Source: Escherichia phage vB_EcoM_ECO1230-10. From it: 41,666 bases of DNA. Made by a program: the position numbers and the translations under genes. The stretch is from sequence record NC_027995.1. The stretch is one strand, 5' to 3'. This document shows, one piece after another, positions 10,400 through 40,826 of this stretch (position 1 is its first letter; each line of letters begins with the position of its first letter). Below the pieces are notes generated by a model. That model worked only from the letters and a program-made list of their open reading frames with translations. It did no database searches and had not been told where the DNA came from.

Positions 10400-10470
10400 T
10401 ATTCGGTTTCCTATTAACTGTGCACACAGTGAAAATTCGCAGTGTGATGGTCGCAGGAACCGTGCGTGGC

Positions 10471-10488
10471 TTCTTCTTGGGGTTTGTC
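10471..10488 (-). promoter_or_regulatory. late-junction motif copy 1 (GACAAACCCCAAGAAGAA), upstream of sheath
   Basis: exact 18-mer; 72 nt from sheath ATG; just downstream of Tfa terminator. Confidence 0.45.
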
Positions 10489-10490
10489 CG

Positions 10491-16729: not shown

Positions 16730-16762
16730 GCGGGCAATGATGCCCGCATGGCCAGTGTTTTA

Positions 16763-16779
16763 TCTTCTTGGGGTTTGTC
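16763..16779 (-). promoter_or_regulatory. late-junction motif copy 2 (17 of 18), between V and W
   Basis: starts 4 nt after V stop; 34 nt from W ATG; followed by hairpin catgcgggc/gcccgcatg that contains the W start codon. Confidence 0.4.
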
Positions 16780-16782
16780 AGG

Positions 16783-27995: not shown

Positions 27996-28430
27996 TTATT
28001 GCCCCGTAGTCATTAGTAGTCGGTGCTGATGGTTGTCATTTGCAGGTGATGTGTCTTTATGGGGTTTGTCAGTGCAATGGCGCTTAACGGTGCGTTCTGA
28101 AACGTCCAACAGTTCCGCGATGGTTTTCGCGTCCACTCCTTCGCTGTGCATCCGCTTAATGCTGCGGTGAATGAAATGGCGGTAAATGTATTCACAATTA
28201 GCCGGGTGAAGCATTTCACCACCGAAGTGCTGCACCATCTTGCTGGCATCGTGCCACCCCAGGATTTTCACCAGTGGGTCATTGGGTCGGATCCGCTTTG
28301 GTACATACAGGATGACTTTGTGGTATTGCTGCGATGGCACCCACAGTTTTGGTAGTTGTCCGATAAGAAAAAGCGCACGTTCACGGCCAATAACGTCAGC
28401 TATTTCCTGCACAGTGCGCGGTAATTCCAT
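27996..28430 (-). CDS. Mor/C-family transcriptional activator (candidate late activator)
   Basis: FGGEML...(about 20 aa)...VDAKTIAELLDVSERTVKRH matches Mor/C layout; located immediately upstream of lysis genes as Mu C is. Confidence 0.55.
   Translation of the reverse strand: MELPRTVQEIADVIGRERALFLIGQLPKLWVPSQQYHKVILYVPKRIRPNDPLVKILGWHDASKMVQHFGGEMLHPANCEYIYRHFIHRSIKRMHSEGVDAKTIAELLDVSERTVKRHCTDKPHKDTSPANDNHQHRLLMTTGQ
28054..28070 (-). promoter_or_regulatory. late-junction motif copy 5 (variant GACAAACCCCATAAAGA), upstream of holin
   Basis: 13 of 17 match, same strand and frame (TDKPHKD) inside activator gene 3' end; 64 nt from holin ATG. Confidence 0.35.
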
Positions 28431-28500
28431 GTAACCCCCAATAATTATAAATAAAAGTCAATATGGGGATTGTAGCACACAGAATATACGAAAGTAACAA

Positions 28501-28768
28501 GGGACTAACTTGGGACTATCTCAGCAAAAGATAGTCCCACTGTTATGCTATTGATTAACTTAAAGAAAACGCCATTTTCTGGCTGATTTGGGACAAGTGG
28601 GACCAAATTTCCCTATATATACTATTACTCCCCATATATTTATAAATAATGTTTTATAAAAAGATAGTCCCTTATAGTCCCAAATGGTGTTTTCGTTATT
28701 AATATCAATAACTTAACGTGGGACCAGCTCAAAAAAAGATAGTCCCATTTGGGACCATAGATAGTCCC
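28501..28768. repeat. iteron-like cluster of 9-bp motif GATAGTCCC with AT-rich tract
   Basis: GATAGTCCC at 28530, 28663, 28738, 28760; TATAGTCCC 28673; inverted GGGACTATC 28512 and GGGACTAAC 28501; GGGAC(C/A)A x4; AT-rich tract 28611-28662. Confidence 0.7.
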
Positions 28769-28829
28769 AAATCGCATTTGTGTGACAATTACTTACCAGA
28801 AAAAGAGGTTAATATTGCTAAATCAACCA

Positions 28830-28854
28830 AAGAAAAAACCGCCCGAAGGCGGTT
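28830..28854 (-). terminator. intrinsic terminator after AP2-like gene
   Basis: minus sense aaccgcc-ttcg-ggcggtt followed by TTTTTTC. Confidence 0.6.
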
Positions 28855-28859
28855 AGTGT

Positions 28860-29177
28860 TCAAGCGCGGCTTGGTCCGGTTGGTATGTCGTCATATCCTC
28901 TGCGCTTCCACAGGCGATACAGTCGCCATGCTATGTGTGCGCGTGGCATTGTTTTGAAGGTTCCCAGTGTTCGCTTTTTCTTACCATCAATGCACGTCAC
29001 CTGCCAACCCCACGCCAGCCGCTGACAGCCAGGAACGCGCGCCATGTGCAGGTTGCGGTTGCTGATTGCTGTGACTGCCGGTTTTGGTTTTGCCACCACT
29101 GGTGCTGGTTTTTGCTTCCGCTTATGTTTCGCCTGCGTGACAAAAGCGTGCCACAGAATATCGGTTGCCAGGCTCAT
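28860..29177 (-). CDS. small basic protein with AP2-like DNA-binding motif
   Basis: GWQVTCIDGKKKRTLGTFKTMPRAHIAWRLYRL resembles AP2 core; Lys/Pro-rich N-terminus. Confidence 0.3.
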   Translation of the reverse strand: MSLATDILWHAFVTQAKHKRKQKPAPVVAKPKPAVTAISNRNLHMARVPGCQRLAWGWQVTCIDGKKKRTLGTFKTMPRAHIAWRLYRLWKRRGYDDIPTGPSRA

Positions 29178-30068: not shown

Positions 30069-30407
30069 TCAATCGCAACCCCCACTGGATGAACTGCTGC
30101 TGTCACAACTGCCGCCGTCATATCCGCCGCTGTCGTGTCCGCTGCTGCGGTGGTGGCTGTCACCGCTGCTATGATAAATCTGGCTGTTCGGGCTTAACGG
30201 GTTCAGTGGGTTCAGCGGGTCGCTGGAATCGTTGCGGCGGCTGATGGTGGCACTACTGTGCCGGTGGCCAGTTGCCTTGCCGGTTGGACGTGAAGACAAT
30301 GCGCGCACGATGTCATCATGGTTGCGCAGGCTGGTGGTGATGGTCACCTTATTCTGTACGGTTTTCGGTTTGCGCCCAAACAGGCGTGCCAGTAAGCGTT
30401 TAAACAT
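30069..30407 (-). CDS. low-complexity protein (basic N-terminus; Ser/Gly/Asp/His-rich C-terminus with PLNPLNPLSP repeat)
   Basis: ORF track; underlying 9-bp tandem repeat gggttcag(t/c); coding status uncertain. Confidence 0.4.
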   Translation of the reverse strand: MFKRLLARLFGRKPKTVQNKVTITTSLRNHDDIVRALSSRPTGKATGHRHSSATISRRNDSSDPLNPLNPLSPNSQIYHSSGDSHHRSSGHDSGGYDGGSCDSSSSSSGGCD

Positions 30408-30453
30408 ACTCCTTTCCCCATGATGTGATGGCCCCGTTGCCGGGGCGTGTTGG

Positions 30454-30708
30454 TTAGTATGCCGCGTCCTGGTACGCGATTGAGTAGTTGGACTCAGTAA
30501 GGCCGATTGAACGCGCCTGCGTGGTGTCGCGAATCATAATCAGCGAACCATCCTTGAAGTTAATCTCGCGGTGGTGAAAGGAGATTGACTCGATTTCCGG
30601 AAGGTTTTCATTCGCGATGATTTCCAGTGCTGCCATTGCGTTCACGTTCATGTTGCTTTTGGTGTTAGCGATAATCTGTGCAAGTTTCATTTCGTTTTCC
30701 TCATTCAT
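30454..30708 (-). CDS. hypothetical protein (84 aa; start may be ATG at 30690)
   Basis: ORF track; GAGGAA SD is optimally placed for the second ATG (MKLAQ...). Confidence 0.5.
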   Translation of the reverse strand: MNEENEMKLAQIIANTKSNMNVNAMAALEIIANENLPEIESISFHHREINFKDGSLIMIRDTTQARSIGLTESNYSIAYQDAAY

Positions 30709-30736
30709 CTGCGGCCCCGCGCCGCTTCATGTAAGT

Positions 30737-30790
30737 AATACTATATTTACTTAGGTAAATGTTCTAATCGTTTGTACCTATCAATAAAAA
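30737..30790 (-). promoter_or_regulatory. conserved intergenic element copy B (downstream of primase)
   Basis: about 80% identical over about 55 bp to 36676-36731; core CTATA...GGTAAAT...AATCG.TTGTACCTAT.AATAAA. Confidence 0.4.
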
Positions 30791-30811
30791 CAAAACCCGC
30801 CGAAGCGGGTT
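30783..30811 (-). terminator. intrinsic terminator after primase gene
   Basis: minus sense acccgc-ttcg-gcgggt followed by TTTTGTTTTTA. Confidence 0.65.
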
Positions 30812-30816
30812 ATCAA

Positions 30817-33120
30817 TCAAAATGGCCGGTCATCATCGTCATTGAATCGCCGGTGGTCAGGATTTGGCACCTTCGGCGGCAGGCTGAACAGGCGGTTGCT
30901 GCCAGACTTCCTGGCTGGCTTGCCAGTGAGTTTTCGAAGCACGCCAGCGCAATGGGTTGTCTGTGCCTTGTTCGGCTTATCGTAGCCTATTTCTTGCAGC
31001 ACCTGGGTTGCTGTACGGTCGGTGTAGGCTGCTGGTCTGTCGCAACCCCACTCGTAACGCATCAGTATCATTTCCTCTACCGGGTCAATCGCTTCGTGTT
31101 CCTTGTTCACTTGTTCCAGCATGGCTTCTTCTTCTGCGTTCATCCACCAGCGTTCGCCTTCGCGGTACAACTGCGCCACTTCTGCCCAAACTTGCTGCAT
31201 ATCAATATCGTGTTCGTAGTTGATGCGTGTTACCGGAATGGTCCACCAGCGAACGTTCCCTGTGTCATCCGCCAGGAAGTGTTTCGGGTTCACTGACGCA
31301 AAAAACACGGTTCTGCGCTGGTAGGTCGATTCAAGCCGGTCGTAAGGTCTGCGGATTTCGTCACGGTCCTGGCTGATGAATGATTTCAGGCGCGCAATGT
31401 CGGATTTGCGAAAAGTTGCATCCAGTTCGCCAAGCTCCACCATCCAGCGGCCAATTGCGCTGCTCACGCTGTCTTTGTTTGCCGGGTCGATTGTTGCCCC
31501 TACCTTAATTAATTCACGCAGTGTAGGCGGAACCAGCGAACGAAACCATGCTGTTTTCCCCAGCGACTGTTCACCCTGTAGCACCAGAACTCCTTTTGAG
31601 TAGAACCCGGTTGGCTGCATTGCTGCGGCAACGGCGGAAATCAACCAGCGGCGAACCATCATCAACACCAGACTGCGGTCAAAACCTTCCGCCGTTTCCA
31701 GTGTGTCACACAGGTCATAAATTCTGCTTACTCCATCCCACGGTTTTGCGGTGATAAATTCAGATGCAGGGTTGTAACGGTTGCTCATGGCAATCAGCTT
31801 TACATATTCAGCACAGGAACCAGACGGCATACCGTTGCGGGCACACAGGCTGACAATTTCAGTCAATGCACTGTTCGCTGATGCGTCGTTTCCGTAATCC
31901 TTTCCGGGGATCGTAACCACCACATCTTTGCTGATTTCGTTGTAACGCGATTTGATGCCGTACTGGTCAAGCAGCCATTCCAGGTTTTCCCACGTGTTAA
32001 GCGGTTTTTGCTGGTGGCTCATGTGCGGGAACATGAACGGGTTTACGCTGGCATCCAGAGGCAGAAAGTTATCATTCACCGGTTCCGGTATCACCGCGTT
32101 AATCTGGTCGCTTACAGCGTTTAAACCTTCCAGCACGTGCAGGTCATTAAAGTCGGTAGGCTTATCGCTAAGGCGCGTAAATTTAGGAACCGCCAGCAGG
32201 CCACCTGTTGTGATTGATGCCTGGCGCGCGTAGTGAACTCCATCATTTTGCTTGCCATCTTCGTGCCACTGGTCATTATCGGCTGCCACAACAATTGTTG
32301 CGCGTCCGAACTGCTGGCGCATCAGCTTGGCTACGGTCGGAACGTTTCCAGCATCGAAAGCGACCACCACGCAGTAACCGGTAGCCATGTGAATTGATGC
32401 GCCGGTGGAATACCCTTCACAGATAACAATAACCGGGTTTGCGCCAGTTGGTTTGTTGCCAATGACGTGGAAGCACCCACGTTTCTGGCCGCCCGGCAGG
32501 TAATCACGGTCACGCCCTAGCTGTGGGTTTTCGTTCTGGAATATGGCTTGCAGGCTGGTGATCTGCCCGTCAATGTTTCTGATTGGCACCAGCAGCGCGC
32601 CATCCTGGTTACGAAAACGACCGATGCGCAGCCCGAATGATTTAACCAGTTTGCGTTTCAGGTATGGGTGTTCATCGCCTTCCAGTTCGGTAGCTGATTC
32701 CCATATGTTGCGCGCCTGCTCTGCTGCCTGCGCCATACGTTCGGCGCGCAGTTGTTGTTCTTTGCGCTCTTCTTCTTCGCGGCGTTGTTTGCGCGCCTGA
32801 ATTTCTTCTGCAGAAATCGGCGTGCGTTCGTTGTCGTTCAGCGAAAAGCCAAATAACTGCGCCTCACCAATCAGGGTGCCAATGCCAATGCCGCCGTGAC
32901 GCTTCACTGATTTCCAGGTGTCGCGTGCGTCTTTGCTGTTGTACTTGTCAGACTGGCGTGACCAGTCATTCCAGACGGTGAAACCGCCGTCGCCTAGTTC
33001 CGATTTGACCGCCATCGCCATGCGCACCCATGTTTCACGGTCGCAACCGGCGTCAATGTAGGAAAGTGCTTCTGCAATTTCCTGTTCGGTCAAATCCTTA
33101 TAGTTTTGTTGTGCACTCAT
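30817..33120 (-). CDS. DNA primase / replicative NTPase (PriCT + TOPRIM + P-loop, P4-alpha/D5-like)
   Basis: TOPRIM VIVICEGYSTGASI and VVAADND; Walker A GEQSLGKT; 767 aa; C-terminus ends DDDDRPF. Confidence 0.85.
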   Translation of the reverse strand: MSAQQNYKDLTEQEIAEALSYIDAGCDRETWVRMAMAVKSELGDGGFTVWNDWSRQSDKYNSKDARDTWKSVKRHGGIGIGTLIGEAQLFGFSLNDNERTPISAEEIQARKQRREEEERKEQQLRAERMAQAAEQARNIWESATELEGDEHPYLKRKLVKSFGLRIGRFRNQDGALLVPIRNIDGQITSLQAIFQNENPQLGRDRDYLPGGQKRGCFHVIGNKPTGANPVIVICEGYSTGASIHMATGYCVVVAFDAGNVPTVAKLMRQQFGRATIVVAADNDQWHEDGKQNDGVHYARQASITTGGLLAVPKFTRLSDKPTDFNDLHVLEGLNAVSDQINAVIPEPVNDNFLPLDASVNPFMFPHMSHQQKPLNTWENLEWLLDQYGIKSRYNEISKDVVVTIPGKDYGNDASANSALTEIVSLCARNGMPSGSCAEYVKLIAMSNRYNPASEFITAKPWDGVSRIYDLCDTLETAEGFDRSLVLMMVRRWLISAVAAAMQPTGFYSKGVLVLQGEQSLGKTAWFRSLVPPTLRELIKVGATIDPANKDSVSSAIGRWMVELGELDATFRKSDIARLKSFISQDRDEIRRPYDRLESTYQRRTVFFASVNPKHFLADDTGNVRWWTIPVTRINYEHDIDMQQVWAEVAQLYREGERWWMNAEEEAMLEQVNKEHEAIDPVEEMILMRYEWGCDRPAAYTDRTATQVLQEIGYDKPNKAQTTHCAGVLRKLTGKPARKSGSNRLFSLPPKVPNPDHRRFNDDDDRPF

Positions 33121-33132
33121 AGAACCCCGATT

Positions 33133-33363
33133 TTATGGCCTGTTAGCGCGCCATATGGCCAGTGCGCGTTGTTCTAGTTCTTCGCGGGCTGTTGCTCCGC
33201 GCCGTTTTTCTATCGCTGCCAGCAGGGTGCGCCGTGCTTCAATGGTTGGCTGATTCAGAACGTATTTGGCTTCGCATTCCAGCAACCATTCCCGGCTATC
33301 GCTCAACACTTCGCGCCCATCGTGCAGCGTCACTGTGGTGGGCTGCCAGGTACAGGCGTTCAC
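33133..33363 (-). CDS. hypothetical protein (76 aa)
   Basis: ORF track; coupled to upstream gene. Confidence 0.5.
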   Translation of the reverse strand: MNACTWQPTTVTLHDGREVLSDSREWLLECEAKYVLNQPTIEARRTLLAAIEKRRGATAREELEQRALAIWRANRP

Positions 33364-34058
33364 GCGACAGCCTCACCGCTTGACGGTTCATTGTCGTTAG
33401 CGTGGCGCAGGTGAGTCGCGTTGGCGTTGAAAACAGCAATGGCGAAGCCCAATGGCGTTGCGCTGCGGATGTTTGCACGCTCTGGACCAGGTGGGCATTT
33501 ATGGATTCTGTCATCTGGCGCGCCTAACGTTTCATCGCGGAACGCTTCCGGCATAACGAAACCGCCACCAGTCCAAAGGCATGTTTTCTTTGTGTAATTG
33601 TCGTTTGCGCAATATCCAGTAAAGTCAGCCGGGTTGAAAGCGTAGTCGGGTTTACGCCACAGGCTGCTAATCTGGCTTACCGGGTTTTCAACGGCCCACG
33701 GCACACCGGCCATCTCGCCAATAATCTGGCACTGCCACACAACGTGCATTGCTTTGAACTGGAAAGCCGGGTCAGCCTCACGTTTCGTGCTAAACCAGCG
33801 AGCACCGCTTACCGCCAAATCAGTGCATGGAGGGAACCCCATAACAAAAACAACGTGACCAGTGGACACGGTGCGGCGCAAAATATCCCACGTAGCTGGA
33901 TGGTCGATAATATGGCCAACGCGGGTGATTGCGCCATCAACGTGAACGCCTTCCGGGTGCTGCGGGTCAACCAGAACGGCTTCATAACCTGCGTCAACCC
34001 ACGGCTTTGCCATTACGCCAGTGATGTCACACAGGCAGATAATAATTCCTTTACTCAT
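33360..34058 (-). CDS. small C5-cytosine-methyltransferase-like protein (minimal, 232 aa)
   Basis: GFPPC (motif IV-like Pro-Cys) and AVENP (motif VI-like ENV) about 44 aa apart; no clear FxGxGG motif I; too short for a canonical Dcm. Confidence 0.4.
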   Translation of the reverse strand: MSKGIIICLCDITGVMAKPWVDAGYEAVLVDPQHPEGVHVDGAITRVGHIIDHPATWDILRRTVSTGHVVFVMGFPPCTDLAVSGARWFSTKREADPAFQFKAMHVVWQCQIIGEMAGVPWAVENPVSQISSLWRKPDYAFNPADFTGYCANDNYTKKTCLWTGGGFVMPEAFRDETLGAPDDRIHKCPPGPERANIRSATPLGFAIAVFNANATHLRHANDNEPSSGEAVA

Positions 34059-34243
34059 AATTTGTTACCCCCGGACAATTTATACTCAAGCAATTCAAGC
34101 TGGTGGGTCGGAATGACTTTCCCGCCCTTACAGCGCCAGATAAGCACCGTTTGTTCAGTGCGGCCAAGTAAACGGCCAACATCGCGGCAGGTTAAGCCAT
34201 GTTTAGCCATAATGTCGTGAAGTCGTTCGGTCCTTTCGTCCAT
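34055..34243 (-). CDS. small HTH DNA-binding protein (Cro/XRE-like)
   Basis: start MDERTERL with GAGG SD; HGLTCRDVGRLLGRTEQTVLIW helix-turn-helix. Confidence 0.5.
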   Translation of the reverse strand: MDERTERLHDIMAKHGLTCRDVGRLLGRTEQTVLIWRCKGGKVIPTHQLELLEYKLSGGNKL

Positions 34244-34285
34244 AGTAATAGCCTCGTAATAACAATGCGCCCATAGTACAGGGCG

Positions 34286-34305
34286 CATTTCCTAAAGTAA
34301 ATATC
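34286..34305 (-). promoter_or_regulatory. conserved intergenic element partial copy C (CATTTCCT..GTAAATATC)
   Basis: same orientation as copies A and B; adjacent to palindrome aatgcgccc/gggcgcatt (34264-34289). Confidence 0.3.
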
Positions 34306-34323
34306 TTTTGAAATAATCTTACG

Positions 34324-34548
34324 TCATCTTGATGATTTCGGCATCACGAAACGGAAACCGGCCTGGTGCTTCATGGCCATTGCGCCTGCCAGGCGTATCA
34401 GTTCAGCGAAAGGGTCTTTGCCGATAGTTGACGTGGTGCGGTACTGTTGCGCCGCGTAGTCAGCCGCGTGCTGCGCTGTGCCAGGTGATGCGCCTTGCTT
34501 CACCAGTTCGGCCATGACTTGTTTTTTGATGAAGTCTACCGGGTTCAT
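34324..34548 (-). CDS. hypothetical small protein (74 aa)
   Basis: ORF track; ATGA coupling with upstream gene. Confidence 0.45.
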   Translation of the reverse strand: MNPVDFIKKQVMAELVKQGASPGTAQHAADYAAQQYRTTSTIGKDPFAELIRLAGAMAMKHQAGFRFVMPKSSR

Positions 34549-34781
34549 GCTGCCGCCCTCCGGTTGCGCTCCTTTCGTGCCTTGCGTCGCATAGCTGCAA
34601 TGCCGGTGAAGCGTGAACGGCGTGGCCCTGGCTTCGGGTAATCCAGTACCACTTGCATTGACCGCACCTTTGGACGCCAGCCAGCACGCACCAACGCCAT
34701 TTGAAAACCCAGGCTGATTTCCCTGGCTGATAACTTCCAGGCGTCAACCAGCCGCTGCATTGCCACTTTGAAAATATTCAT
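34545..34781 (-). CDS. hypothetical small basic protein (78 aa)
   Basis: ORF track; Arg/Lys-rich C-terminus; ATGA coupling. Confidence 0.45.
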   Translation of the reverse strand: MNIFKVAMQRLVDAWKLSAREISLGFQMALVRAGWRPKVRSMQVVLDYPKPGPRRSRFTGIAAMRRKARKERNRRAAA

Positions 34782-34939
34782 TCAACACCCCACGTTTGTT
34801 TCAGGTTTTCCACTTCAAGCGCCGTTAACATGCCGTAACGGTTCAGATTCCACATTGCCGTTTTTGCCGCCAGGAACGTGATGTGGTTCCTGGTCACCAG
34901 TGCTTCTGCAAACAGTCTGCGAATGCTTTCGATTGTCAT
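34778..34939 (-). CDS. hypothetical small protein (53 aa), alternative to the track's 68-aa ORF
   Basis: MTIESIRRLFAEALVTRNHITFLAAKTAMWNLNRYGMLTALEVENLKQTWGVE; globular-looking; stop overlaps next ATG (ATGA); under 60 aa so absent from track. Confidence 0.35.
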   Translation of the reverse strand: MTIESIRRLFAEALVTRNHITFLAAKTAMWNLNRYGMLTALEVENLKQTWGVE

Positions 34940-35017
34940 CATGGTTTAGCCACTCCATCATTGATCGTCCGGTATCTACGCTGTAGCGCAGTGCGTCGGA
35001 TGCTATCTGTTTTATGC

Positions 35018-35431
35018 TCATTTGCCGAACACCAGTTTTTCAGCGTCAGCCACTGACCGCACAACACCGGCGCGGCCACCATCAGCATTCACCACACTAA
35101 TGAACGTTTTTTGCAGCGGTGACGGCTTGCCATTTTCGTCCTTAACTTCTGGACCAATGAAAATCGCCACCTTTTGGCCAACCATGTCAGCGGTTATTTC
35201 TTCAACCACATAACCAAACAGGTCGGTGAATCCTGGTGGCAACCCGGTGTCAAACGGCCTTGCGTTCCGCAGCAGGACATCACGCGGCCCCATAACAACC
35301 GGCATCTTGCGCGGCACCTTCACCACGTCATTACTGGCCCACGCTTTTCCTACGTTGGCGCGAAACAGTTTGCATCGCCCAGCCAGTGCGTTGCGGATTT
35401 CGTTCTGTATCGCGTGCTCTTTGTTAGCCAT
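35018..35431 (-). CDS. VRR-NUC domain nuclease
   Basis: start MANKEH with GGTGGGGG SD; LFRANVGKAW then PGFTDL...IFIGPEVK (PD-(D/E)xK). Confidence 0.6.
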   Translation of the reverse strand: MANKEHAIQNEIRNALAGRCKLFRANVGKAWASNDVVKVPRKMPVVMGPRDVLLRNARPFDTGLPPGFTDLFGYVVEEITADMVGQKVAIFIGPEVKDENGKPSPLQKTFISVVNADGGRAGVVRSVADAEKLVFGK

Positions 35432-35531
35432 AGATAACCCCCACCAGGACAGCACAGGCAGCCAGCACCACCAGCAGCAAGAACAATTCATCTTTCAGCA
35501 TCGCCAGGATGCCACGCAGAAACAGTTTCAT
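35424..35531 (-). CDS. 35-aa hydrophobic membrane peptide
   Basis: MKLFLRGILAMLKDELFLLLVVLAACAVLVGVIYG; ATGA-coupled on both sides; not in ORF track. Confidence 0.35.
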   Translation of the reverse strand: MKLFLRGILAMLKDELFLLLVVLAACAVLVGVIYG

Positions 35532-35920
35532 TTGACGGCCCCTGGATATTCACCAGAATTGCAGCGCATCCACACACGCAGGCCAATTTGTTCAGGTCGA
35601 AGGCTTGCCGATTGTGGCCAGAACACCTGGCGCGCCACCCAAATGATGCGGTTCTGGTTGTTGTTGGCCAGCAGGGTGACCACGCCCTGTTCGCCTGCGC
35701 CTTTGTCGCGCAGTTCAGCGATTTTGACGGCGATTTTTTGCAGTTCCAGGCAGTAGTAAACCTGGTCAACGTCCTGCAATTCCGGCTGTGGTGCCGGTTC
35801 CTGTTCTTCCGTCACCTGGCAGTTGTCCTTTGCCGGGTCCATGCCTGGCAGGCATTCGCGCGCCTGTGCTGCTGCGCTGGTGGCCGCCAGGAGGAAAGCG
35901 GCGATGATAAGTTTTTTCAT
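35528..35920 (-). CDS. secreted/periplasmic protein with Sec signal peptide
   Basis: ATG at 35920 with AGGTGA SD; MKKLIIAAFLLAATSAAAQA signal; several Cys. Confidence 0.6.
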   Translation of the reverse strand: MKKLIIAAFLLAATSAAAQARECLPGMDPAKDNCQVTEEQEPAPQPELQDVDQVYYCLELQKIAVKIAELRDKGAGEQGVVTLLANNNQNRIIWVARQVFWPQSASLRPEQIGLRVWMRCNSGEYPGAVK

Positions 35921-35962
35921 GGTGTCACCTGTGAGAACTGCCCGGCGCACCGGGCATGGTTG

Positions 35963-36631
35963 TTATTTGCCGGTCGGAATCCCACACAGCGCGTTCAGGT
36001 CAGCGACTGACAGCGCAATGCCAGTGCATGGCTGTTTAGCAATCGGCGTAGTTTCTGGAATCAGTTCTTTTGCATCTGGCCATGCTTCCAGGAGTTTTTC
36101 CACAGTTGTGAACCCTGAAATTGTCGCTTTCAGTGTTGATTTAAGCGTGTTGTATTCTTCACGCAGTTGCGCAGCTTCCTGGTCGATAGCGTCCAGTTCT
36201 TCGCGCCATTTCGGATCGCATACGATGAAATCTTTTTCGCAGGTATGCGGTGAATATTTTTTCTCGTCGTATTCAGCCACCGATTCCTTGAATAGCGGTT
36301 CATATCGTGCATCGGTGTTAACGCCGTTGCGATAAACGTAACGAGACTGGCCGGATAAATTAACGTCTAAACGGTATTGGCTACCATCAAATTCTACTCG
36401 CACATAGCTAGCGCCTTCGTGCTTAACCTCTTTTGCAAGTTTCTCAACCTGCTCCTTGATTTCTGCCAGTCGTTCATCAGTCAGACCGTATTCACCCAGG
36501 ATAAATAGGCGCAGACGTTCAGCAAAATCAGCGCGTTTCTGAACGATAGCCAAATCACGGCCTGCAAAGTCTTTGGTTTTGATTGCGTTGGCAATGATGC
36601 CATCACGGATTGCAGCGGTTAAACGTGCCAT
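35963..36631 (-). CDS. hypothetical protein (222 aa)
   Basis: start MARLTAAI with AAGAGGAAA SD; the track's longer ORF starts at the ATG inside element A. Confidence 0.6.
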   Translation of the reverse strand: MARLTAAIRDGIIANAIKTKDFAGRDLAIVQKRADFAERLRLFILGEYGLTDERLAEIKEQVEKLAKEVKHEGASYVRVEFDGSQYRLDVNLSGQSRYVYRNGVNTDARYEPLFKESVAEYDEKKYSPHTCEKDFIVCDPKWREELDAIDQEAAQLREEYNTLKSTLKATISGFTTVEKLLEAWPDAKELIPETTPIAKQPCTGIALSVADLNALCGIPTGK

Positions 36632-36675
36632 TTTGGTGTTTCCTCTTTTGTTGTTGAGCACCTGTGTGCCGGTGA

Positions 36676-36731
36676 AATAACTATACATTTCCTTTGGTAA
36701 ATATCGCCAATCGGTTGTACCTATTAATAAA
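36676..36731 (-). promoter_or_regulatory. conserved intergenic element copy A (downstream of helicase)
   Basis: homologous to 30737-30790; contains AGGAAATG. Confidence 0.4.
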
Positions 36732-36735
36732 CACG

Positions 36736-38154
36736 CTATTTACGTTTAAATCTTCTTCCGCCCATCTTCGCTATGGCCCAACCTGATGGGTTCGGCAGCC
36801 CTCGTTTCATCGCCAGGGCGGTCAGTGCGCCAATGTCTTTGCACGCATCTTCTTCGCGCCTCATCTTGGCGCGCAGACTTTCTTTGGCGCGTTCGTCCAT
36901 TTCGCGCAGTTCACCTTCCGCCACTTCAATTTCTTTGGCTTCGGCCTGTAGTTCCTTCTGGCAGTGCGGGCACTTCGGCGGCAGCGGTCTTCGGATGGCG
37001 TTGAAACAGCCTTTGCAGATGACTGGCGGCGGTGGTCCACCAGCGCTGCTGGATTTGCTGCCGCTATCATCGCCAGCCAGTGACCATTCCCGTTCATCAT
37101 CGGGGAAGCCATGACGCAGCGCATTGCCAGCGTGGTCCAGGATGATGGCGGTTTTTCCTTTGGACGGTCGCAACACGCGCCCATCTTTCTGTAACACCAG
37201 CGACAATGATTGTGTGGGCTGCGCGTCAATCAGGCAGTCAATCGTCACGTCAGTCTGCGCGATGGCTGACAGGTCGAAACCTTCACCGAACAGGGACACG
37301 TTGAAAATCACATCCAGGTTATCGTTGGCGTAGTCCTGAATGATGCGCTTGCGTTCCGCCTTATCGGTGCCGCCGTCCAGGTGTGCGGCTCGGATGCCTG
37401 AATCAATGAATGCCTGCGTTAAATGGCGGCTGTGTGCGATGTTTACCGCAAAGCCAACCGTTTTCATGCCTTTGGCGTATTTCAGCCAGTGGCTGATGAT
37501 GTTGCCGGTTAGTTTCGGTTTATCCATCTTCTCGGCGGTTTCGCCTTTTGAGAAATCGCCCATCTGCTTGCGTACACCCTTCATGTCAGGGATGTCCGGG
37601 CAGAACATGCGATAATCAGACAGGTGGCCGTTATCCATCAGCCAGCGCACAGATGGCCCCAACACGATGTCATCAAAGTGGTCATCCAGGCCGGTGCCGT
37701 CCAGGCGCTTTGGCGTGGCTGACAGGCCGATGACATACGCGCCATTCTCAAACAGCCAGGCGTTGACGCGTGCCCAACCAGCCGCGCCACAGTGGTGCGC
37801 TTCGTCCATGATTGCCAGTTTAGGGGCGGGCAGGGTGTGCAGGCGGTTTTTCAGGGTGTCGATGCTGCACACCTGCACCCCGGCGCGCAGGTTCATGGGA
37901 TAGCCTGCGGCAATAAAGCCGTGATCAATGCCGAACTTGCGAAACGTCAGGCTGGTTTGCAGCACCAGTTCTGCGCGGTGGCAAATAAACCACACCTGCT
38001 GCCCTTTTGACGATGCTTCCCCAGCCATGAATGACGCCAGCGCAGTTTTCCCCGCGCCTGTTGGTGCCTGCAATAACACGCGCCGGTTGCGCCGCATACA
38101 AAGGCGCGCCCTATTGATAATGTCGGATTGATAGTCCCTAAGTATTACGCCCAT
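36736..38154 (-). CDS. DEAH-box superfamily-2 helicase with C-terminal zinc ribbon
   Basis: Walker A APTGAGKT; MDEAHH box; CKGC...CPHC; first gene of minus-strand early operon. Confidence 0.85.
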   Translation of the reverse strand: MGVILRDYQSDIINRARLCMRRNRRVLLQAPTGAGKTALASFMAGEASSKGQQVWFICHRAELVLQTSLTFRKFGIDHGFIAAGYPMNLRAGVQVCSIDTLKNRLHTLPAPKLAIMDEAHHCGAAGWARVNAWLFENGAYVIGLSATPKRLDGTGLDDHFDDIVLGPSVRWLMDNGHLSDYRMFCPDIPDMKGVRKQMGDFSKGETAEKMDKPKLTGNIISHWLKYAKGMKTVGFAVNIAHSRHLTQAFIDSGIRAAHLDGGTDKAERKRIIQDYANDNLDVIFNVSLFGEGFDLSAIAQTDVTIDCLIDAQPTQSLSLVLQKDGRVLRPSKGKTAIILDHAGNALRHGFPDDEREWSLAGDDSGSKSSSAGGPPPPVICKGCFNAIRRPLPPKCPHCQKELQAEAKEIEVAEGELREMDERAKESLRAKMRREEDACKDIGALTALAMKRGLPNPSGWAIAKMGGRRFKRK

Positions 38155-38348
38155 AATTATTATTCATCGCTTATCATTCAAAGTATTCGCAATTGTATGT
38201 TACTGCGTTGCTTCTGTGCAACCGCAAGTATTCGTTATTGATGTTCAGCAAAACGTGATCTGCAAAAAAAAAGCATGGCAGATGTACAGCTAAGGTTTGT
38301 TGATTAGGCCTCATGACGCCAATTAAAACCCTGTTATCGACAAAGAAG

Positions 38349-38378
38349 TTGACAGTATAACAGCACGTAAGTCATAAT
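38349..38378 (+). promoter_or_regulatory. sigma70-like promoter for plus-strand early operon
   Basis: TTGACA (38349-38354), 18-nt spacer, CATAAT (38373-38378); about 45 nt upstream of exonuclease ATG with GAGGGG SD. Confidence 0.45.
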
Positions 38379-38428
38379 TCACCGCAGTTAATCGGAAGTC
38401 ATGTTAAATAATCGTTGCGAGGGGCAAT

Positions 38429-39568
38429 ATGAAACCAGGAGTTTACGAAGGCATTTCAAACGCTGAATACCACGGCGGCCCAGGCATCAGTAAGTCTGGC
38501 CTGGATTTGGTGCACCGCAGCCCGATGCACTACAACGCTGTTGTGACTGCTGCTAATGACCGCACGCCAACACCAGCGCAGGAAATCGGCACGGCTGTGC
38601 ATATGGCAATTCTTGAACCGGAAGAATTCGCAAAAACCTATTGCATGGCGCTGCGCCGTTCTGATGTGCCTGATGCCATTGATGACCGCGAAGTGCTGGT
38701 GGAAATGGTCAACAAGCTGAATGAAGCCCGCCTGGCAAAACTGTCAACCAGCGGTAATAAAGACGCGCTTATTGACCGTATTGTTGAATTTACCACTGGA
38801 TGGGGGACACGCGAAGAACTGGAAGCGATGAAAGTCGCAGAACTCAAAGCCTTCATTGAACGAGTCAACGAAAAACGCACTGGTTTGCTTTCCACCAGCG
38901 GCAGCCGTCATGAACTGGCCAACCTGCTGCGCGAAAACGGCGTGGAAGTCACACTGTGGTCAGATGTGCTGGAAGAATGGCAGCGCAATAACAGCGAACG
39001 CAAAGTGCTGTCACCGGAAGCGTTTGAACAAATTTTTGCCATGCGTGACTCGGTAATGAATCACCCGGCAGCTTTCGCTATCCTGCACCACGTCAAAGAC
39101 ATCATTGGTGACCTGAAAACAACAGAAGATGCCAGCCCGGAAGGGTTCGCAAAGTCAATCGCAAACTGGCGCTATGACGTGCAACACGCATACTACATTG
39201 ACGGCACGCGTCTGGCGCTTGAGCAGGGCAAGTGCAATCCGCCGCAGGAAGGAAAAGCAGAGTTATCAGTTTACTGGACGGATCCGGTGACCGGCGTTCT
39301 GTGCCGCTGCCGCCCTGATTTCTGGCGTGGTTATCCTAAACACTTTGCGTTTATCGCCGTTGAGAAAAAACCGCCTTACGCAGTTGGTGTTTATGTACTG
39401 GATAGCGAAGGCGTAGAAATTGGCCGCGCACAGTACCAGCATGATTTGCGCGTGTACGCTGAATGCGTGCGTTCAGGTGAATGGCCTGGCTACGGCGATA
39501 AAGTCCAGACCATCAGCCTGCCAGGCTGGCACGCGAACAAAAACGCCCACCTGGTTGGTGCGGCTTAA
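38429..39568 (+). CDS. PD-(D/E)XK recombination exonuclease (RecE/Cas4-like fold) with SAP-like inserts
   Basis: N-terminal GISNAEYH...H.AILEP pattern; two LSTSG...L SAP-like helices; first gene of Sak4/SSB module. Confidence 0.6.
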   Translation: MKPGVYEGISNAEYHGGPGISKSGLDLVHRSPMHYNAVVTAANDRTPTPAQEIGTAVHMAILEPEEFAKTYCMALRRSDVPDAIDDREVLVEMVNKLNEARLAKLSTSGNKDALIDRIVEFTTGWGTREELEAMKVAELKAFIERVNEKRTGLLSTSGSRHELANLLRENGVEVTLWSDVLEEWQRNNSERKVLSPEAFEQIFAMRDSVMNHPAAFAILHHVKDIIGDLKTTEDASPEGFAKSIANWRYDVQHAYYIDGTRLALEQGKCNPPQEGKAELSVYWTDPVTGVLCRCRPDFWRGYPKHFAFIAVEKKPPYAVGVYVLDSEGVEIGRAQYQHDLRVYAECVRSGEWPGYGDKVQTISLPGWHANKNAHLVGAA

Positions 39569-40598: not shown

Positions 40599-40826
40599 AT
40601 GGCACAACCGGCACAGAAACAAAGCACGTATCTGACGCCACAGGAACTGGTGCAGCGCTGGAATGGCGCTGTTACCACCGGCACCCTGGCGAACTGGCGT
40701 AACAAAGGCAAAGGGCCAGCCTATACAAAATTTGGCTCACGCGTTCGCTACTCCATCACCAGCGTGGAAGCGTATGAAGCAAAACACATGATTGGGGCAA
40801 ATGACAATGACACGACCACCAGCTAA
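40599..40826 (+). CDS. AlpA/Xis-like HTH DNA-binding protein
   Basis: YLTPQELVQRWNGAVTTGTLANWRNKGKGPAYTKFGSRVRY matches excisionase/AlpA-type HTH. Confidence 0.55.
   Translation: MAQPAQKQSTYLTPQELVQRWNGAVTTGTLANWRNKGKGPAYTKFGSRVRYSITSVEAYEAKHMIGANDNDTTTS

What the first reader, a model, noticed from the sequence alone, without database searches (positions are those of the whole stretch)
30737..36731. Conserved 55-bp intergenic element present twice (plus a partial third copy) in the early region
Copies at 36676-36731 (just after the helicase stop) and 30737-30790 (just after the primase terminator) are about 80% identical, with core CTATA..GGTAAAT..AATCG.TTGTACCTAT.AATAAA. A 20-bp partial copy CATTTCCT..GTAAATATC lies at 34286-34305 upstream of the HTH gene. 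All are in the same orientation, each immediately 5' of the next minus-strand gene, and copies A and C contain AGGAAATG. This looks like a reused promoter/operator cassette for early or middle transcription units.
Basis: seen in the sequence. Interest (0 to 1): 0.55.

Follow-up and report, generated by a model that had tools for sequence, protein, structure and literature searches.

The report
Repeated phage promoter with regulator-binding site
The repeat is real: a phage promoter cassette used twice, carrying a 16-bp palindromic binding site that occurs a third time in front of a small Cro-like regulator gene, which is an ordinary kind of phage gene switch not yet described for this phage group.

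Summary
Observation confirmed. Copies A (36675-36731) and B (30733-30788) align at 44/57 positions (77%), far above chance: score 29.5 against 13.5±1.2 for shuffles.

The window is a Jilinvirus-like myophage. Read on the gene (minus) strand, each copy has three parts:
- an AT-rich upstream block, TTrATAGGTAcAAmCGATTrG, ending in a -35-like TTGGCG or TTAGAA;
- a 16-bp palindrome, ATTTAC-N4-GkAAAT;
- a -10 hexamer, TATAGT or TAGTAT.

The "partial third copy" C is a complete copy of the palindrome alone, lying over the -35 of the promoter of a 62-aa HTH gene. At ≤1 mismatch the palindrome occurs 3 times (0.06 expected). In two complete relative genomes it occurs nowhere outside the orthologous places.

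Phage Arya has TTTAA-N4-TTAAA at all three places, and Mica and FoX1 have TTCAC-N4-GTGAA. Only the 62-aa XRE/Cro-like protein changes with the site; the late activator and the HTH_17 protein do not.

Best reading: three sigma-70 promoters forming a small regulon controlled by this regulator, most likely repression plus autoregulation. Activation from within the unusually long 18-19-bp spacers is not excluded. No transcript or binding data exist.

This is a new member of a known kind, of moderate interest.

The parts
36705..36731 (-). Copy A, upstream block: TTTATTAATAGGTACAACCGATTGGCG. AT-rich (UP-like) block ending in the -35-like hexamer TTGGCG (36705-36710).
   Evidence: Conserved after the helicase stop in all relatives; 4/6 match to TTGACA; 19 bp to the -10.
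36687..36702 (-). Operator O-A: 16-bp palindrome ATTTACCAAAGGAAAT (minus strand), filling the promoter spacer.
36680..36685 (-). Copy A, -10 hexamer TATAGT. Predicted transcription start about 36673. A 5' leader hairpin lies at 36658-36669. The real start codon of the Nmad5-domain gene is at 36634.
   Evidence: Inferred, with no transcript data.
30794..30811 (-). Intrinsic terminator after primase: AACCCGCTTCGGCGGGTT followed by TTTGTTTTT, directly upstream of copy B.
   Evidence: (-11.8 kcal/mol, z -3.5).
30762..30790 (-). Copy B, upstream block: TTTTTATTGATAGGTACAAACGATTAGAA. Ends in the -35-like hexamer TTAGAA (30762-30767, 3/6).
30745..30760 (-). Operator O-B: perfect palindrome ATTTACCTAAGTAAAT.
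30738..30745 (-). Copy B, -10 region: overlapping hexamers TATAGT (16-bp spacer) and TAGTAT (18-bp spacer). Predicted start about 30730. Leader hairpin at 30711-30725. Next gene 30454-30708 (or start at 30690).
   Evidence: Inferred.
34287..34302 (-). Operator O-C: ATTTACTTTAGGAAAT. Its left half-site supplies the -35-like hexamer TTTACT (34296-34301) of the HTH gene's promoter.
34273..34278 (-). Copy C, -10 hexamer TACTAT, 17 bp after TTTACT. Predicted start about 34266.
   Evidence: Inferred.
34264..34289 (-). GC-rich inverted repeat (9-bp stem) whose 8-nt loop holds the -10 of promoter C. On read-through RNA it would be a terminator-like hairpin.
   Evidence: -17.1 kcal/mol, z -4.2. The stem differs but stays complementary in MQ-4, Arya, FoX1 and Persinger.
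34055..34243 (-). Gene for the 62-aa XRE/Cro-like HTH protein (phrog_14341), the proposed operator-binding regulator.

Best explanation
A, B and C are three host-RNA-polymerase (sigma-70) promoters inside the leftward early/replication gene cluster of a Jilinvirus-type phage. Each carries one 16-bp dyad operator for the phage's own 62-aa Cro-like (XRE-fold) HTH protein, encoded directly downstream of C.

A and B are paralogous full cassettes made of:
- an AT-rich upstream block, acting as an UP-like element and ending in a -35-like TTGGnn or TTAGnn;
- the operator, which fills an 18-19-bp spacer;
- a TAnnnT -10 hexamer;
- an ATTTCA-type start region.

They restart transcription after the helicase gene and after the primase terminator, ahead of the two most variable gene blocks.

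At C the operator's left half-site, TTTACT, itself serves as the -35. The bound dimer would therefore block its own promoter (autoregulation). At A and B a dimer sitting between -35 and -10 would most likely exclude or stall RNA polymerase. The protein would then turn down all three units once it has accumulated.

Shown here: the repeat, the dyad, its conservation, and its change together with the protein. Inferred: promoter activity, the start sites, binding by this protein, and the sign of regulation.
For: - **The repeat is far above chance**.
- **Same places in relatives.** The cassette is found after helicase and after primase in ep3, ECOO78, Bas97, PT1, Alux-21, KA2-1, Arya, MQ-4 and three metagenomic relatives.
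- **No stray copies.** In the complete genomes of ECOO78 and KA2-1 the palindrome at ≤1 mismatch occurs nowhere outside these orthologous places. ECOO78's site after helicase needs more than one mismatch.
- **Constrained spacing.** In the 26 copies the two linkers vary (3-5 and 2-4 nt) but always sum to 6-7. The spacing from block end to -10 is therefore 18-19 bp in every copy, as expected if both are read together by RNA polymerase.
- **Concerted operator change.** Arya has TTTAA-N4-TTAAA at all three sites. Mica (4 sites) and FoX1 have TTCAC-N4-GTGAA. MQ-4, PPpW-3 (two of three sites, the third degenerate), Persinger, Mano (right half-site merged with the -10) and a Microvirga prophage keep TTTAC/GTAAA.
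- **Three-phage test.** The operator type groups the window with KA2-1 against Arya. The 62-aa HTH does the same: 95% identical to KA2-1, 54-55% to Arya, with recognition helix EQTVLIW against VSTVRVW. The late activator instead groups KA2-1 with Arya (78%, against 57% to the window). HTH_17 is 90-97% identical in all three.
- **Site C is always present.** It lies immediately upstream of the HTH gene in every phage that has the gene.
- **Fold.** The predicted structure (pLDDT 90) is a four-helix lambda-repressor-like HTH. Matches include HipB, CapH, C.EcoT38IS, P22 c2 and Cro, Aca10 and ClgR, with probability ≥0.95 for the matches named here.
- **Not an RNA structure.** The palindrome as an RNA hairpin is worth only about -2 kcal/mol, no better than shuffles.
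- **Start-site hint.** In relatives a conserved structured RNA candidate begins 4 nt after the predicted start of A/B-type promoters.
Against: - There are no transcript, footprint or binding data for any of these phages.
- The simple sigma-70 scan does not call A, B or C. A has a 19-bp spacer, B's -35 is 3/6, and C scores 8/12.
- The upstream block is more strictly conserved than a generic UP element needs to be, so it may bind another factor.
- Consistently over-long spacers with a centred dyad are the hallmark of activator-dependent (MerR-type) promoters, not of simple repression.
- In temperate relatives, unregulated internal promoters would be awkward in a lysogen, which fits activation better.
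- Recognition-helix residues do not map one-to-one onto operator classes. PQT occurs with both TTTAC and TTCAC.
- Foldseek E-values are weak (0.06-0.5), and Pfam gives only a sub-threshold HTH_23 hit.
Confidence: 0.6

Rival explanations
1. Same promoters and same operator, but the 62-aa protein is an activator at A and B. The 18-19-bp spacers make the promoters intrinsically weak. A dimer bound to the centred dyad would remodel the spacer, as MerR-type regulators or Mu C at Pmom do, and switch on 'middle' units, while still repressing its own promoter C. This would give an early, then middle, then late cascade.
For: - All 26 A/B-type copies have 18-19-bp spacing between the -35-like and -10 hexamers, never 17, with the dyad roughly centred.
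- B sits right behind a strong terminator, so the downstream unit depends on B alone.
- B-type -35 hexamers are poor: TTAGAA, TTATGT.
- Temperate relatives with a CI-like repressor have no TTTAC palindrome in the CI-controlled region. Internal promoters must therefore be kept silent in some other way.
Against: - The protein is a plain four-helix XRE-type HTH of 62 aa, with no MerR-type winged helix or coiled coil.
- The dyad slides by up to 2 bp relative to the -10 between copies (linker 2 is 2-4 nt). A torsional mechanism should not tolerate this.
- Small XRE proteins of this fold (Cro, Aca, HipB, HigA) are mostly repressors.
- The late-activator gene has its own 430-bp upstream region behind a second terminator, so B is not needed to explain late timing.
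Confidence: 0.22
2. The conserved upstream block of A and B (TTGATAGGTAtAAACGATTrG) is not an UP/-35 element but the binding site of a second phage protein, for example the Mor/C-like late activator. A and B would then be activator-dependent promoters that the palindrome-binding protein only modulates.
For: - The block is conserved almost base for base in 26 copies. It is recognisable as GATAG-N3-AAAAYCAATTGG even in Pseudomonas and Burkholderia phages whose operators differ.
- It spans roughly -58 to -32, where Mor and C bind at Mu promoters (established knowledge of Mu Pm and Pmom).
- A relative's late activator is annotated as HHpred-similar to Mu Mor.
Against: - The block occurs only twice in the window, and not upstream of the lysis or structural genes that a late activator must switch on.
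- The late activator is only 57% identical between the window and KA2-1 or Arya, yet the block is nearly identical.
- The block is not a dyad.
- The late activator gave no match to the Pfam Mor family (PF08765) at E≤0.01 and no PDB sequence match to Mor.
- The fixed spacing to the -10, with a TTG at the right place, is explained more simply by sigma-70 contacts.
Confidence: 0.1
3. The 55-bp repeat matters mainly as a portable recombination or module-boundary sequence, like the promoter-stem-loop repeats that flank mobile cassettes in T4-type phages. Any promoter activity would be secondary.
For: - The genes just downstream of A and of B are the most variable parts of the region among relatives: Nmad5, small ORFs, a methyltransferase or an RNA-like cassette.
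- The same ~155-nt RNA-like cassette follows the A-type copy in KA2-1 and MQ-4 but the B-type copy in Bas97, PT1, Alux-21 and Arya.
- A leader shared by A-type copies reappears after B in L095 and L096.
Against: - Homology for recombination does not need a dyad, a -10 hexamer or a fixed 18-19-bp spacing, all of which are conserved.
- It does not explain the third, palindrome-only site, nor the concerted operator switches.
- This is best seen as a side effect of reusing a promoter, not an alternative to it.
Confidence: 0.05

Closest known systems
Cro-type regulators and their operators in lambdoid phages (lambda, 434, P22), including the 'immunity-specificity' co-variation of repressor and operators
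   Same: A small XRE-fold HTH protein. Dyad operators of 14-17 bp present in several copies and overlapping promoter elements. The operator sequence and the recognition helix change together between related phages: Arya against the window, and the Mica/FoX1 class.
   Different: The sites are not in the divergent CI/early control region. They sit at three internal promoters spread over 6 kb. There is one operator per promoter rather than tandem triplets. The gene lies in the middle of the operon, not first. CI-less phages keep the system.
Phage P22 Pant with the Arc operator (operator between -35 and -10)
   Same: The operator occupies the spacer between the -35 and -10 of a sigma-70 promoter. 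The predicted effect is to block or slow open-complex formation.
   Different: Arc is a ribbon-helix-helix tetramer on a 21-bp site. Here the protein is a predicted helix-turn-helix and the dyad is 16 bp.
Controller (C) proteins of restriction-modification systems and Aca proteins of anti-CRISPR operons
   Same: XRE-type HTH proteins of 60-80 aa that bind a dyad over the -35 of their own promoter and autoregulate. C.EcoT38IS and Aca10 are among the structural matches.
   Different: Those act on a single operon. Here two further, distant promoters carry the site, with a different geometry.
MerR-family promoters (merT, zntA, soxS, bmr), and Mu Pmom activated by C
   Same: An over-long 18-19-bp spacer with a dyad roughly centred in it at A/B-type copies.
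   Different: There is no MerR-family protein that tracks the site. The HTH_17 protein stays 90-97% identical while the operator changes. The dyad position slides by up to 2 bp.
PeSL (promoter-early stem-loop) repeats flanking mobile gene cassettes in T4-type phages
   Same: A reused promoter sequence precedes hypervariable gene cassettes, and the same cassette is found behind either copy in different phages.
   Different: There is no stem-loop in the shared part. Recombination at these sites is inferred only from cassette positions.

Membership tests
Sigma-70 promoter | A -10 hexamer with A at position 2 and T at position 6, at the right distance from a start site and a gene. | tested here: met
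   TATAGT (A), TATAGT or TAGTAT (B), TACTAT (C). A TAnnnT hexamer follows the palindrome by 2-4 nt in all 26 A/B-type copies.
Sigma-70 promoter | A -35 hexamer resembling TTGACA, 16-18 bp upstream of the -10. | tested here: inconclusive
   A: TTGGCG (4/6) at 19 bp. B: TTAGAA (3/6) at 16 or 18 bp. C: TTTACT (4/6) at 17 bp. None passes the 9/12 rule of the consensus scan. Spacing is conserved at 18-19 bp.
Sigma-70 promoter | Primary transcripts start a few bases downstream of the -10. | not testable with these tools
   No transcript data found. Indirect hint: a conserved structured RNA candidate begins 4 nt after the predicted start in relatives.
Operator of a dimeric HTH regulator | Dyad symmetry, several copies above chance, located at promoters. 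| tested here: met
   ATTTAC-N4-GkAAAT occurs 3 times against 0.06 expected. In relatives it sits at the orthologous places and nowhere else.
Operator of a dimeric HTH regulator | Site and regulator change together. | tested here: met
   Both half-sites changed at all three Arya sites, and a TTCAC class occurs in Mica and FoX1. Only the 62-aa HTH follows the operator grouping. No simple residue-to-base code emerges.
Operator of a dimeric HTH regulator | Specific binding by the protein. | not testable with these tools
   Needs EMSA or footprinting.
Cro/C1 (XRE, lambda-repressor-like) HTH proteins | Lambda-repressor-like helical HTH fold. | tested here: met
   AlphaFold model with pLDDT 90 and four helices. 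Foldseek matches to HipB, CapH, P22 c2 and Cro, C.EcoT38IS, Aca10 and ClgR with TM 0.57-0.78 and probability ≥0.95 for most of them (P22 Cro 0.84), but E-values only 0.06-0.5.
Cro/C1 (XRE, lambda-repressor-like) HTH proteins | Sequence match to the family models (Pfam HTH_3 and relatives). | tested here: not met
   Only HTH_23 at 19.4 bits, below its 24.6-bit cut-off. PHROG 14341 'transcriptional repressor' matches at E 8e-17. The best PDB profile hit is an XRE protein at E 0.12.
MerR-type activated promoter | A 19-20-bp spacer with a centred dyad. | tested here: inconclusive
   Spacers are 18-19 bp and the dyad lies inside them, but it slides by up to 2 bp between copies.
MerR-type activated promoter | A cognate MerR-family regulator. 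| tested here: not met
   The only MerR-clan-like protein (HTH_17, 40599-40826) is 90% identical in Arya, where the operator differs. The protein that tracks the site has an XRE fold.
Mor/C-dependent (Mu-type middle or late) promoter | An activator dyad at about -33 to -51, and the same site at the other activator-dependent promoters. | tested here: not met
   The upstream block is not a dyad, and it occurs only at A and B, not before late genes. The late activator does not track either element.
Intrinsic terminator (upstream of B) | A GC-rich hairpin followed by a T-run. | tested here: met
   AACCCGCTTCGGCGGGTT followed by TTTGTTTTT. Folding energy -11.8 kcal/mol, z -3.5.

The most novel reading that the evidence does not exclude
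The 62-aa XRE-fold protein is a middle-gene activator that works from inside deliberately over-long (18-19-bp) promoter spacers. That mechanism is so far tied to MerR-family proteins and Mu C. It would give this widespread, little-studied group of small myophages (Jilinvirus, Aryavirus and relatives in Serratia, Pseudomonas, Burkholderia and Xanthomonas) a Mu-like early, middle, late cascade. The reused promoter would double as a recombination site that moves cassettes, including a new ~155-nt structured RNA, between the two positions.
Probability: 0.2. Interest if true: 0.6.

Novelty: new member of a known kind. Interest (0 to 1): 0.35.

Why it matters
Nothing is known about gene control in Jilinvirus-type phages, which are used as therapy candidates and have an unclear lifestyle.

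This analysis gives a concrete, testable wiring diagram:
- three internal promoters;
- one dyad operator, with at least three specificity classes across relatives;
- one small regulator.

It also corrects two over-long gene calls. It marks the two promoters as the entry points of the variable cassette regions, which is useful for engineering these phages or for building orthogonal regulator-operator pairs.

It would become more than routine only if the regulator proved to activate transcription from within the long spacers.

Tried and rejected
- **Chance or AT-rich low complexity.** Rejected by shuffles.
- **More full copies in the window.** None found by blastn-short, nhmmer or pattern search. 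The only 2-mismatch palindrome hit (38377-38392, at the start of the rightward early promoter) is within chance expectation. It does not follow the operator class in relatives.
- **RNA or DNA hairpin function of the palindrome.** Rejected: about -2 kcal/mol, no better than shuffles.
- **Known RNA family.** No Rfam match in the window or in the RNA-like cassette of relatives.
- **Operator of the CI-like repressor.** Rejected. CI-less phages keep the sites, and phages with CI have different repeats (TAACCGT/ACGGTTA) in the early region.
- **Host transcription factor site.** Rejected, because the site differs between phages of related enterobacterial hosts (Arya against the others).
- **Late activator or HTH_17 protein as the palindrome binder.** Rejected by the three-phage comparison.
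- **Searches that added little.**
  - The HTH alignment was too variable for a locus scan.
  - The primase-based scan of bacterial genomes gave 80 loci, but only three carried the HTH gene.
  - The Arya-HTH scan of viral contigs found only remote homologues without an intergenic region.
  - Iterated nhmmer did not reach the Pseudomonas and Burkholderia copies, which I read by eye.
  - PDB sequence searches gave nothing significant.
- **Literature.** No description of promoters or regulation in this phage group.

Full report
**What the window is**

A megablast of 30400-37000 finds Jilinvirus-type myophages: ET-SD-TH, vB_EcoM-ep3, HeidiAbel/Bas97, PT1, Alux-21 and ECOO78 (86-92% identity), KA2-1 (82%) and Arya (78%). 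The 62-aa HTH protein of the window is identical to that of phage vB_EcoM_ECO1230-10.

Relatives' annotations and family searches give this layout. The genes between about 28 and 38 kb run on the minus strand:
- helicase, 36736-38154;
- an Nmad5-domain gene, 35963-36634;
- a Holliday-junction resolvase and small ORFs;
- the small HTH gene, 34055-34243;
- a methyltransferase;
- a DUF7696 gene;
- primase, 30817-33120;
- four ORFs of unknown function;
- the 'late transcriptional activator', 27996-28430.

A divergent rightward operon starts at 38429.

**Checking the observation**

The two long copies are real. A local alignment of copy A against the rest of the window, both strands, selects copy B: 30733-30788 against 36675-36731, with one 1-nt gap. 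The score of 29.5 implies 44 identical of 57 columns (77%). Three hundred dinucleotide shuffles gave 13.5±1.2, maximum 18.5. blastn-short finds the same unique partner.

The 'partial third copy' is a complete copy of a 16-bp palindrome contained in A and B, ATTTAC-N4-GkAAAT:
- 30745-30760 (B), 0 mismatches;
- 34287-34302 (C), 1 mismatch;
- 36687-36702 (A), 1 mismatch.

That is three hits at ≤1 mismatch against 0.06 expected, and no shuffle reached three. The upstream block ATAGGTAYAAMCGATT occurs only in A and B.

**Anatomy, read on the gene strand**

| Copy | Sequence (5'→3', minus strand) | Notes |
|---|---|---|
| A | TTTATTAATAGGTACAACCGA-**TTGGCG**-at-[ATTTACCAAAGGAAAT]-g-**TATAGT**-TATTTCA | Followed by a small leader hairpin and the Shine-Dalgarno/ATG of the Nmad5 gene at 36634 |
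| B | Terminator hairpin + T-run, then TTGATAGGTACAAACGA-**TTAGAA**-c-[ATTTACCTAAGTAAAT]-a**TAGTAT** | Followed by a leader hairpin and the next gene. The -10 shown is TAGTAT; the alternative TATAGT overlaps the palindrome's last T |
| C | gat-[A**TTTACT**TTAGGAAAT]-gcgccctg-**TACTAT**-gggcgc | The left half-site doubles as a -35-like hexamer, 17 bp from TACTAT. A 9-bp GC-rich inverted repeat encloses the -10 |

Brackets mark the palindrome; bold marks the -35-like and -10 hexamers.

The inverted repeat at C folds at -17.1 kcal/mol (z -4.2). The ATGs at 36688 and 34288, which start the longest ORFs, lie inside the elements. Homology begins at the downstream ATGs, so the elements are non-coding.

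**Relatives**

A profile built from A and B finds exactly two copies per phage, directly after the helicase stop and directly after the primase terminator. This holds in ep3, ECOO78, Bas97, PT1, Alux-21, KA2-1, Arya and MQ-4, and in three metagenomic relatives found through the HTH protein.

At ≤1 mismatch the palindrome occurs only at the three orthologous places. The complete genomes of ECOO78 and KA2-1 have no extra hits.

I parsed 26 A/B-type copies from 15 phages. The linker before the palindrome is 3-5 nt and the linker after it is 2-4 nt, but the two always sum to 6 or 7. A TTGGnn or TTAGnn hexamer and a TAnnnT hexamer are therefore 18-19 bp apart in every copy (three copies also offer a hexamer at 16 bp). 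Compensating indels of this kind are what a promoter read by RNA polymerase predicts. They also show that the operator can slide a little inside the spacer.

**The palindrome is a protein site, and which protein**

As an RNA hairpin the palindrome is worth only -2.1 to -2.4 kcal/mol, no better than shuffles.

Three operator classes appear across relatives:

| Operator class | Phages |
|---|---|
| TTTAC-N4-GTAAA | The window and close Jilinvirus relatives; MQ-4; PPpW-3 (two of three sites, the third degenerate); Persinger; Mano (right half-site merged with the -10); a Microvirga prophage |
| TTTAA-N4-TTAAA | Arya, at all three sites, so all six half-sites changed |
| TTCAC-N4-GTGAA | Burkholderia phage Mica (four sites); Xanthomonas phage FoX1 |

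In every phage one site lies just upstream of the small HTH gene.

A three-phage comparison identifies the partner. By operator, the window and KA2-1 group together against Arya.
- The 62-aa HTH protein does the same. It is 95% identical between the window and KA2-1 and 54-55% identical to Arya. The recognition helix is RTEQTVLIWR in the window and RTVSTVRVWR in Arya.
- The late activator groups KA2-1 with Arya (78%) against the window (57%).
- The HTH_17 protein is 90-97% identical in all three.
- Eleven database homologues of 74-92% identity keep the helix-turn-helix segment invariant. The three of their contigs that I read keep the TTTAC operator.

The correlation is not a clean residue-to-base code. 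The residues PQT occur with both TTTAC and TTCAC.

The AlphaFold model (pLDDT 90, four helices) matches lambda-repressor-like HTH domains: HipB, CapH, C.EcoT38IS, P22 c2 and Cro, Aca10 and ClgR. Foldseek probability is ≥0.95 for most of these (0.84 for P22 Cro), but E-values are weak, 0.06-0.5. Pfam gives only a sub-threshold HTH_23 hit. PHROG 14341 is labelled 'transcriptional repressor'.

**Most likely mechanism**

A, B and C are sigma-70 promoters under one phage regulator.

At C the operator covers the -35, so the protein should repress its own synthesis. At A and B the operator fills the spacer, the classic position for steric repression, as with Arc at P22 Pant.

I therefore favour a Cro-like turn-down of three early/replication units with autoregulation, at overall confidence 0.6. 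Of that, I put the promoter-plus-operator-for-this-protein part at about 0.75 and the repressive sign at about 0.55-0.6.

**Rival readings**

The main rival (0.22) is activation. Points in its favour:
- the spacers are always 18-19 bp, never 17;
- B-type -35 hexamers are poor;
- B follows a strong terminator;
- temperate relatives would need these internal promoters silent in a lysogen, and their CI-controlled region lacks this palindrome.

Against activation are the plain XRE fold and the sliding of the dyad.

The upstream block is conserved more strictly than a generic UP element. It is recognisable as GATAG-N3-AAAAYCAATTGG even in Pseudomonas and Burkholderia phages. A second bound factor is therefore possible (0.1). 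The late activator is a poor candidate: the block is absent from late genes and the activator does not track it.

**What argues against the promoter reading**

The consensus scan does not call any of the three. No transcript or binding data exist for this phage group.

**Comparison with known systems**

In function this is the familiar phage pattern of a small HTH regulator with dyad operators that co-vary with it, as in the immunity regions of lambdoid phages. The autoregulatory geometry matches that of controller and Aca proteins.

It differs in three ways:
- it acts at three dispersed internal promoters rather than at the CI/Cro switch;
- there is one operator per promoter;
- it persists in CI-less phages.

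It is not a MerR system, because no tracking MerR-type protein exists. It does not meet the tests for a Mor/C-dependent promoter.

I file it as a new member of a known kind.

**Side observations**

The two cassettes precede the most variable gene blocks. The same ORF-less ~155-nt element follows the A-type copy in KA2-1 and MQ-4, but the B-type copy in Bas97, PT1, Alux-21 and Arya. It has a consensus fold with 10 covarying pairs and no Rfam match. This suggests that the shared promoter also serves as a recombination site. The RNA candidate is not present in the window.

Noticed in passing
window 28430-28860: A 430-bp AT-rich gap lies between a terminator (28837-28854, minus strand) and the late-activator gene. 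It holds about 10 copies of GGGACTAT(CT)/GTCCCA in both orientations, including a perfect 11-bp inverted repeat TGGGACTATCT-N7-AGATAGTCCCA (28506-28539) and a near-copy at 28714-28747. An extremely AT-rich stretch lies around 28620-28670. It looks like an iteron array: a possible replication origin, or a regulator-binding array controlling the late activator.
   Followed up: partly
window 10464-10489, 16755-16780, 21057-21082, 23796-23821, 28046-28071: There are five copies of TGACAAACCCCAAGAAGA (minus strand) in the late region. One lies about 50 nt before the end of the late-activator gene, just upstream of the lysis genes. One follows a terminator. Others seem to lie inside coding sequence. 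This may be a late-promoter or activator site, or a repeated peptide motif.
   Followed up: partly
L001 4094-4266(-), L004 37390-37560, L005 33561-33732, L006 2813-2985(-), L007 2823-2995(-), L009 4632-4803 (not in the window): A conserved ORF-less element of about 155 nt starts 4 nt after the predicted start of A- or B-type promoters in relatives, ahead of unrelated genes. Its consensus fold has 42 pairs, 10 of them with compensatory changes, although there are only two sequence variants. No Rfam match. It is a candidate new phage structured RNA or leader.
   Followed up: partly
window 34264-34289 and orthologous sites in MQ-4, Arya, FoX1, Persinger, Mano: At the HTH gene's promoter, the -10 hexamer always sits in the 8-nt loop of a GC-rich inverted repeat. 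The stem sequence differs between phages but stays complementary. It could be a terminator or attenuator for read-through transcripts, a second operator, or a structure-dependent promoter.
   Followed up: partly
window 38154-38429: The divergent early control region has a near-consensus rightward promoter, TTGACA-18-CATAAT (38349-38378). This region is shared with CI-less relatives (ep3, ECOO78, KA2-1, Alux-21). CI-encoding relatives (Bas97, PT1, Arya, MQ-4) instead have a different segment with TAACCGT/ACGGTTA repeats. The lysogeny module seems to have been replaced as a block.
   Followed up: partly
window 35963-36634 (-): The first gene behind copy A encodes an Nmad5 (nucleotide-modification-associated domain 5, PF18757) protein, E 6e-38. 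It is present in only some relatives (ep3, L095). This hints at a variable DNA-modification function in this cassette position.
   Followed up: no
window 36688 and 34288: The longest-ORF start codons of the Nmad5 gene (241 aa) and of the HTH gene (77 aa, as annotated in ep3 and Bas97) lie inside the promoter/operator elements. The likely true products are 223 aa and 62 aa.
   Followed up: yes
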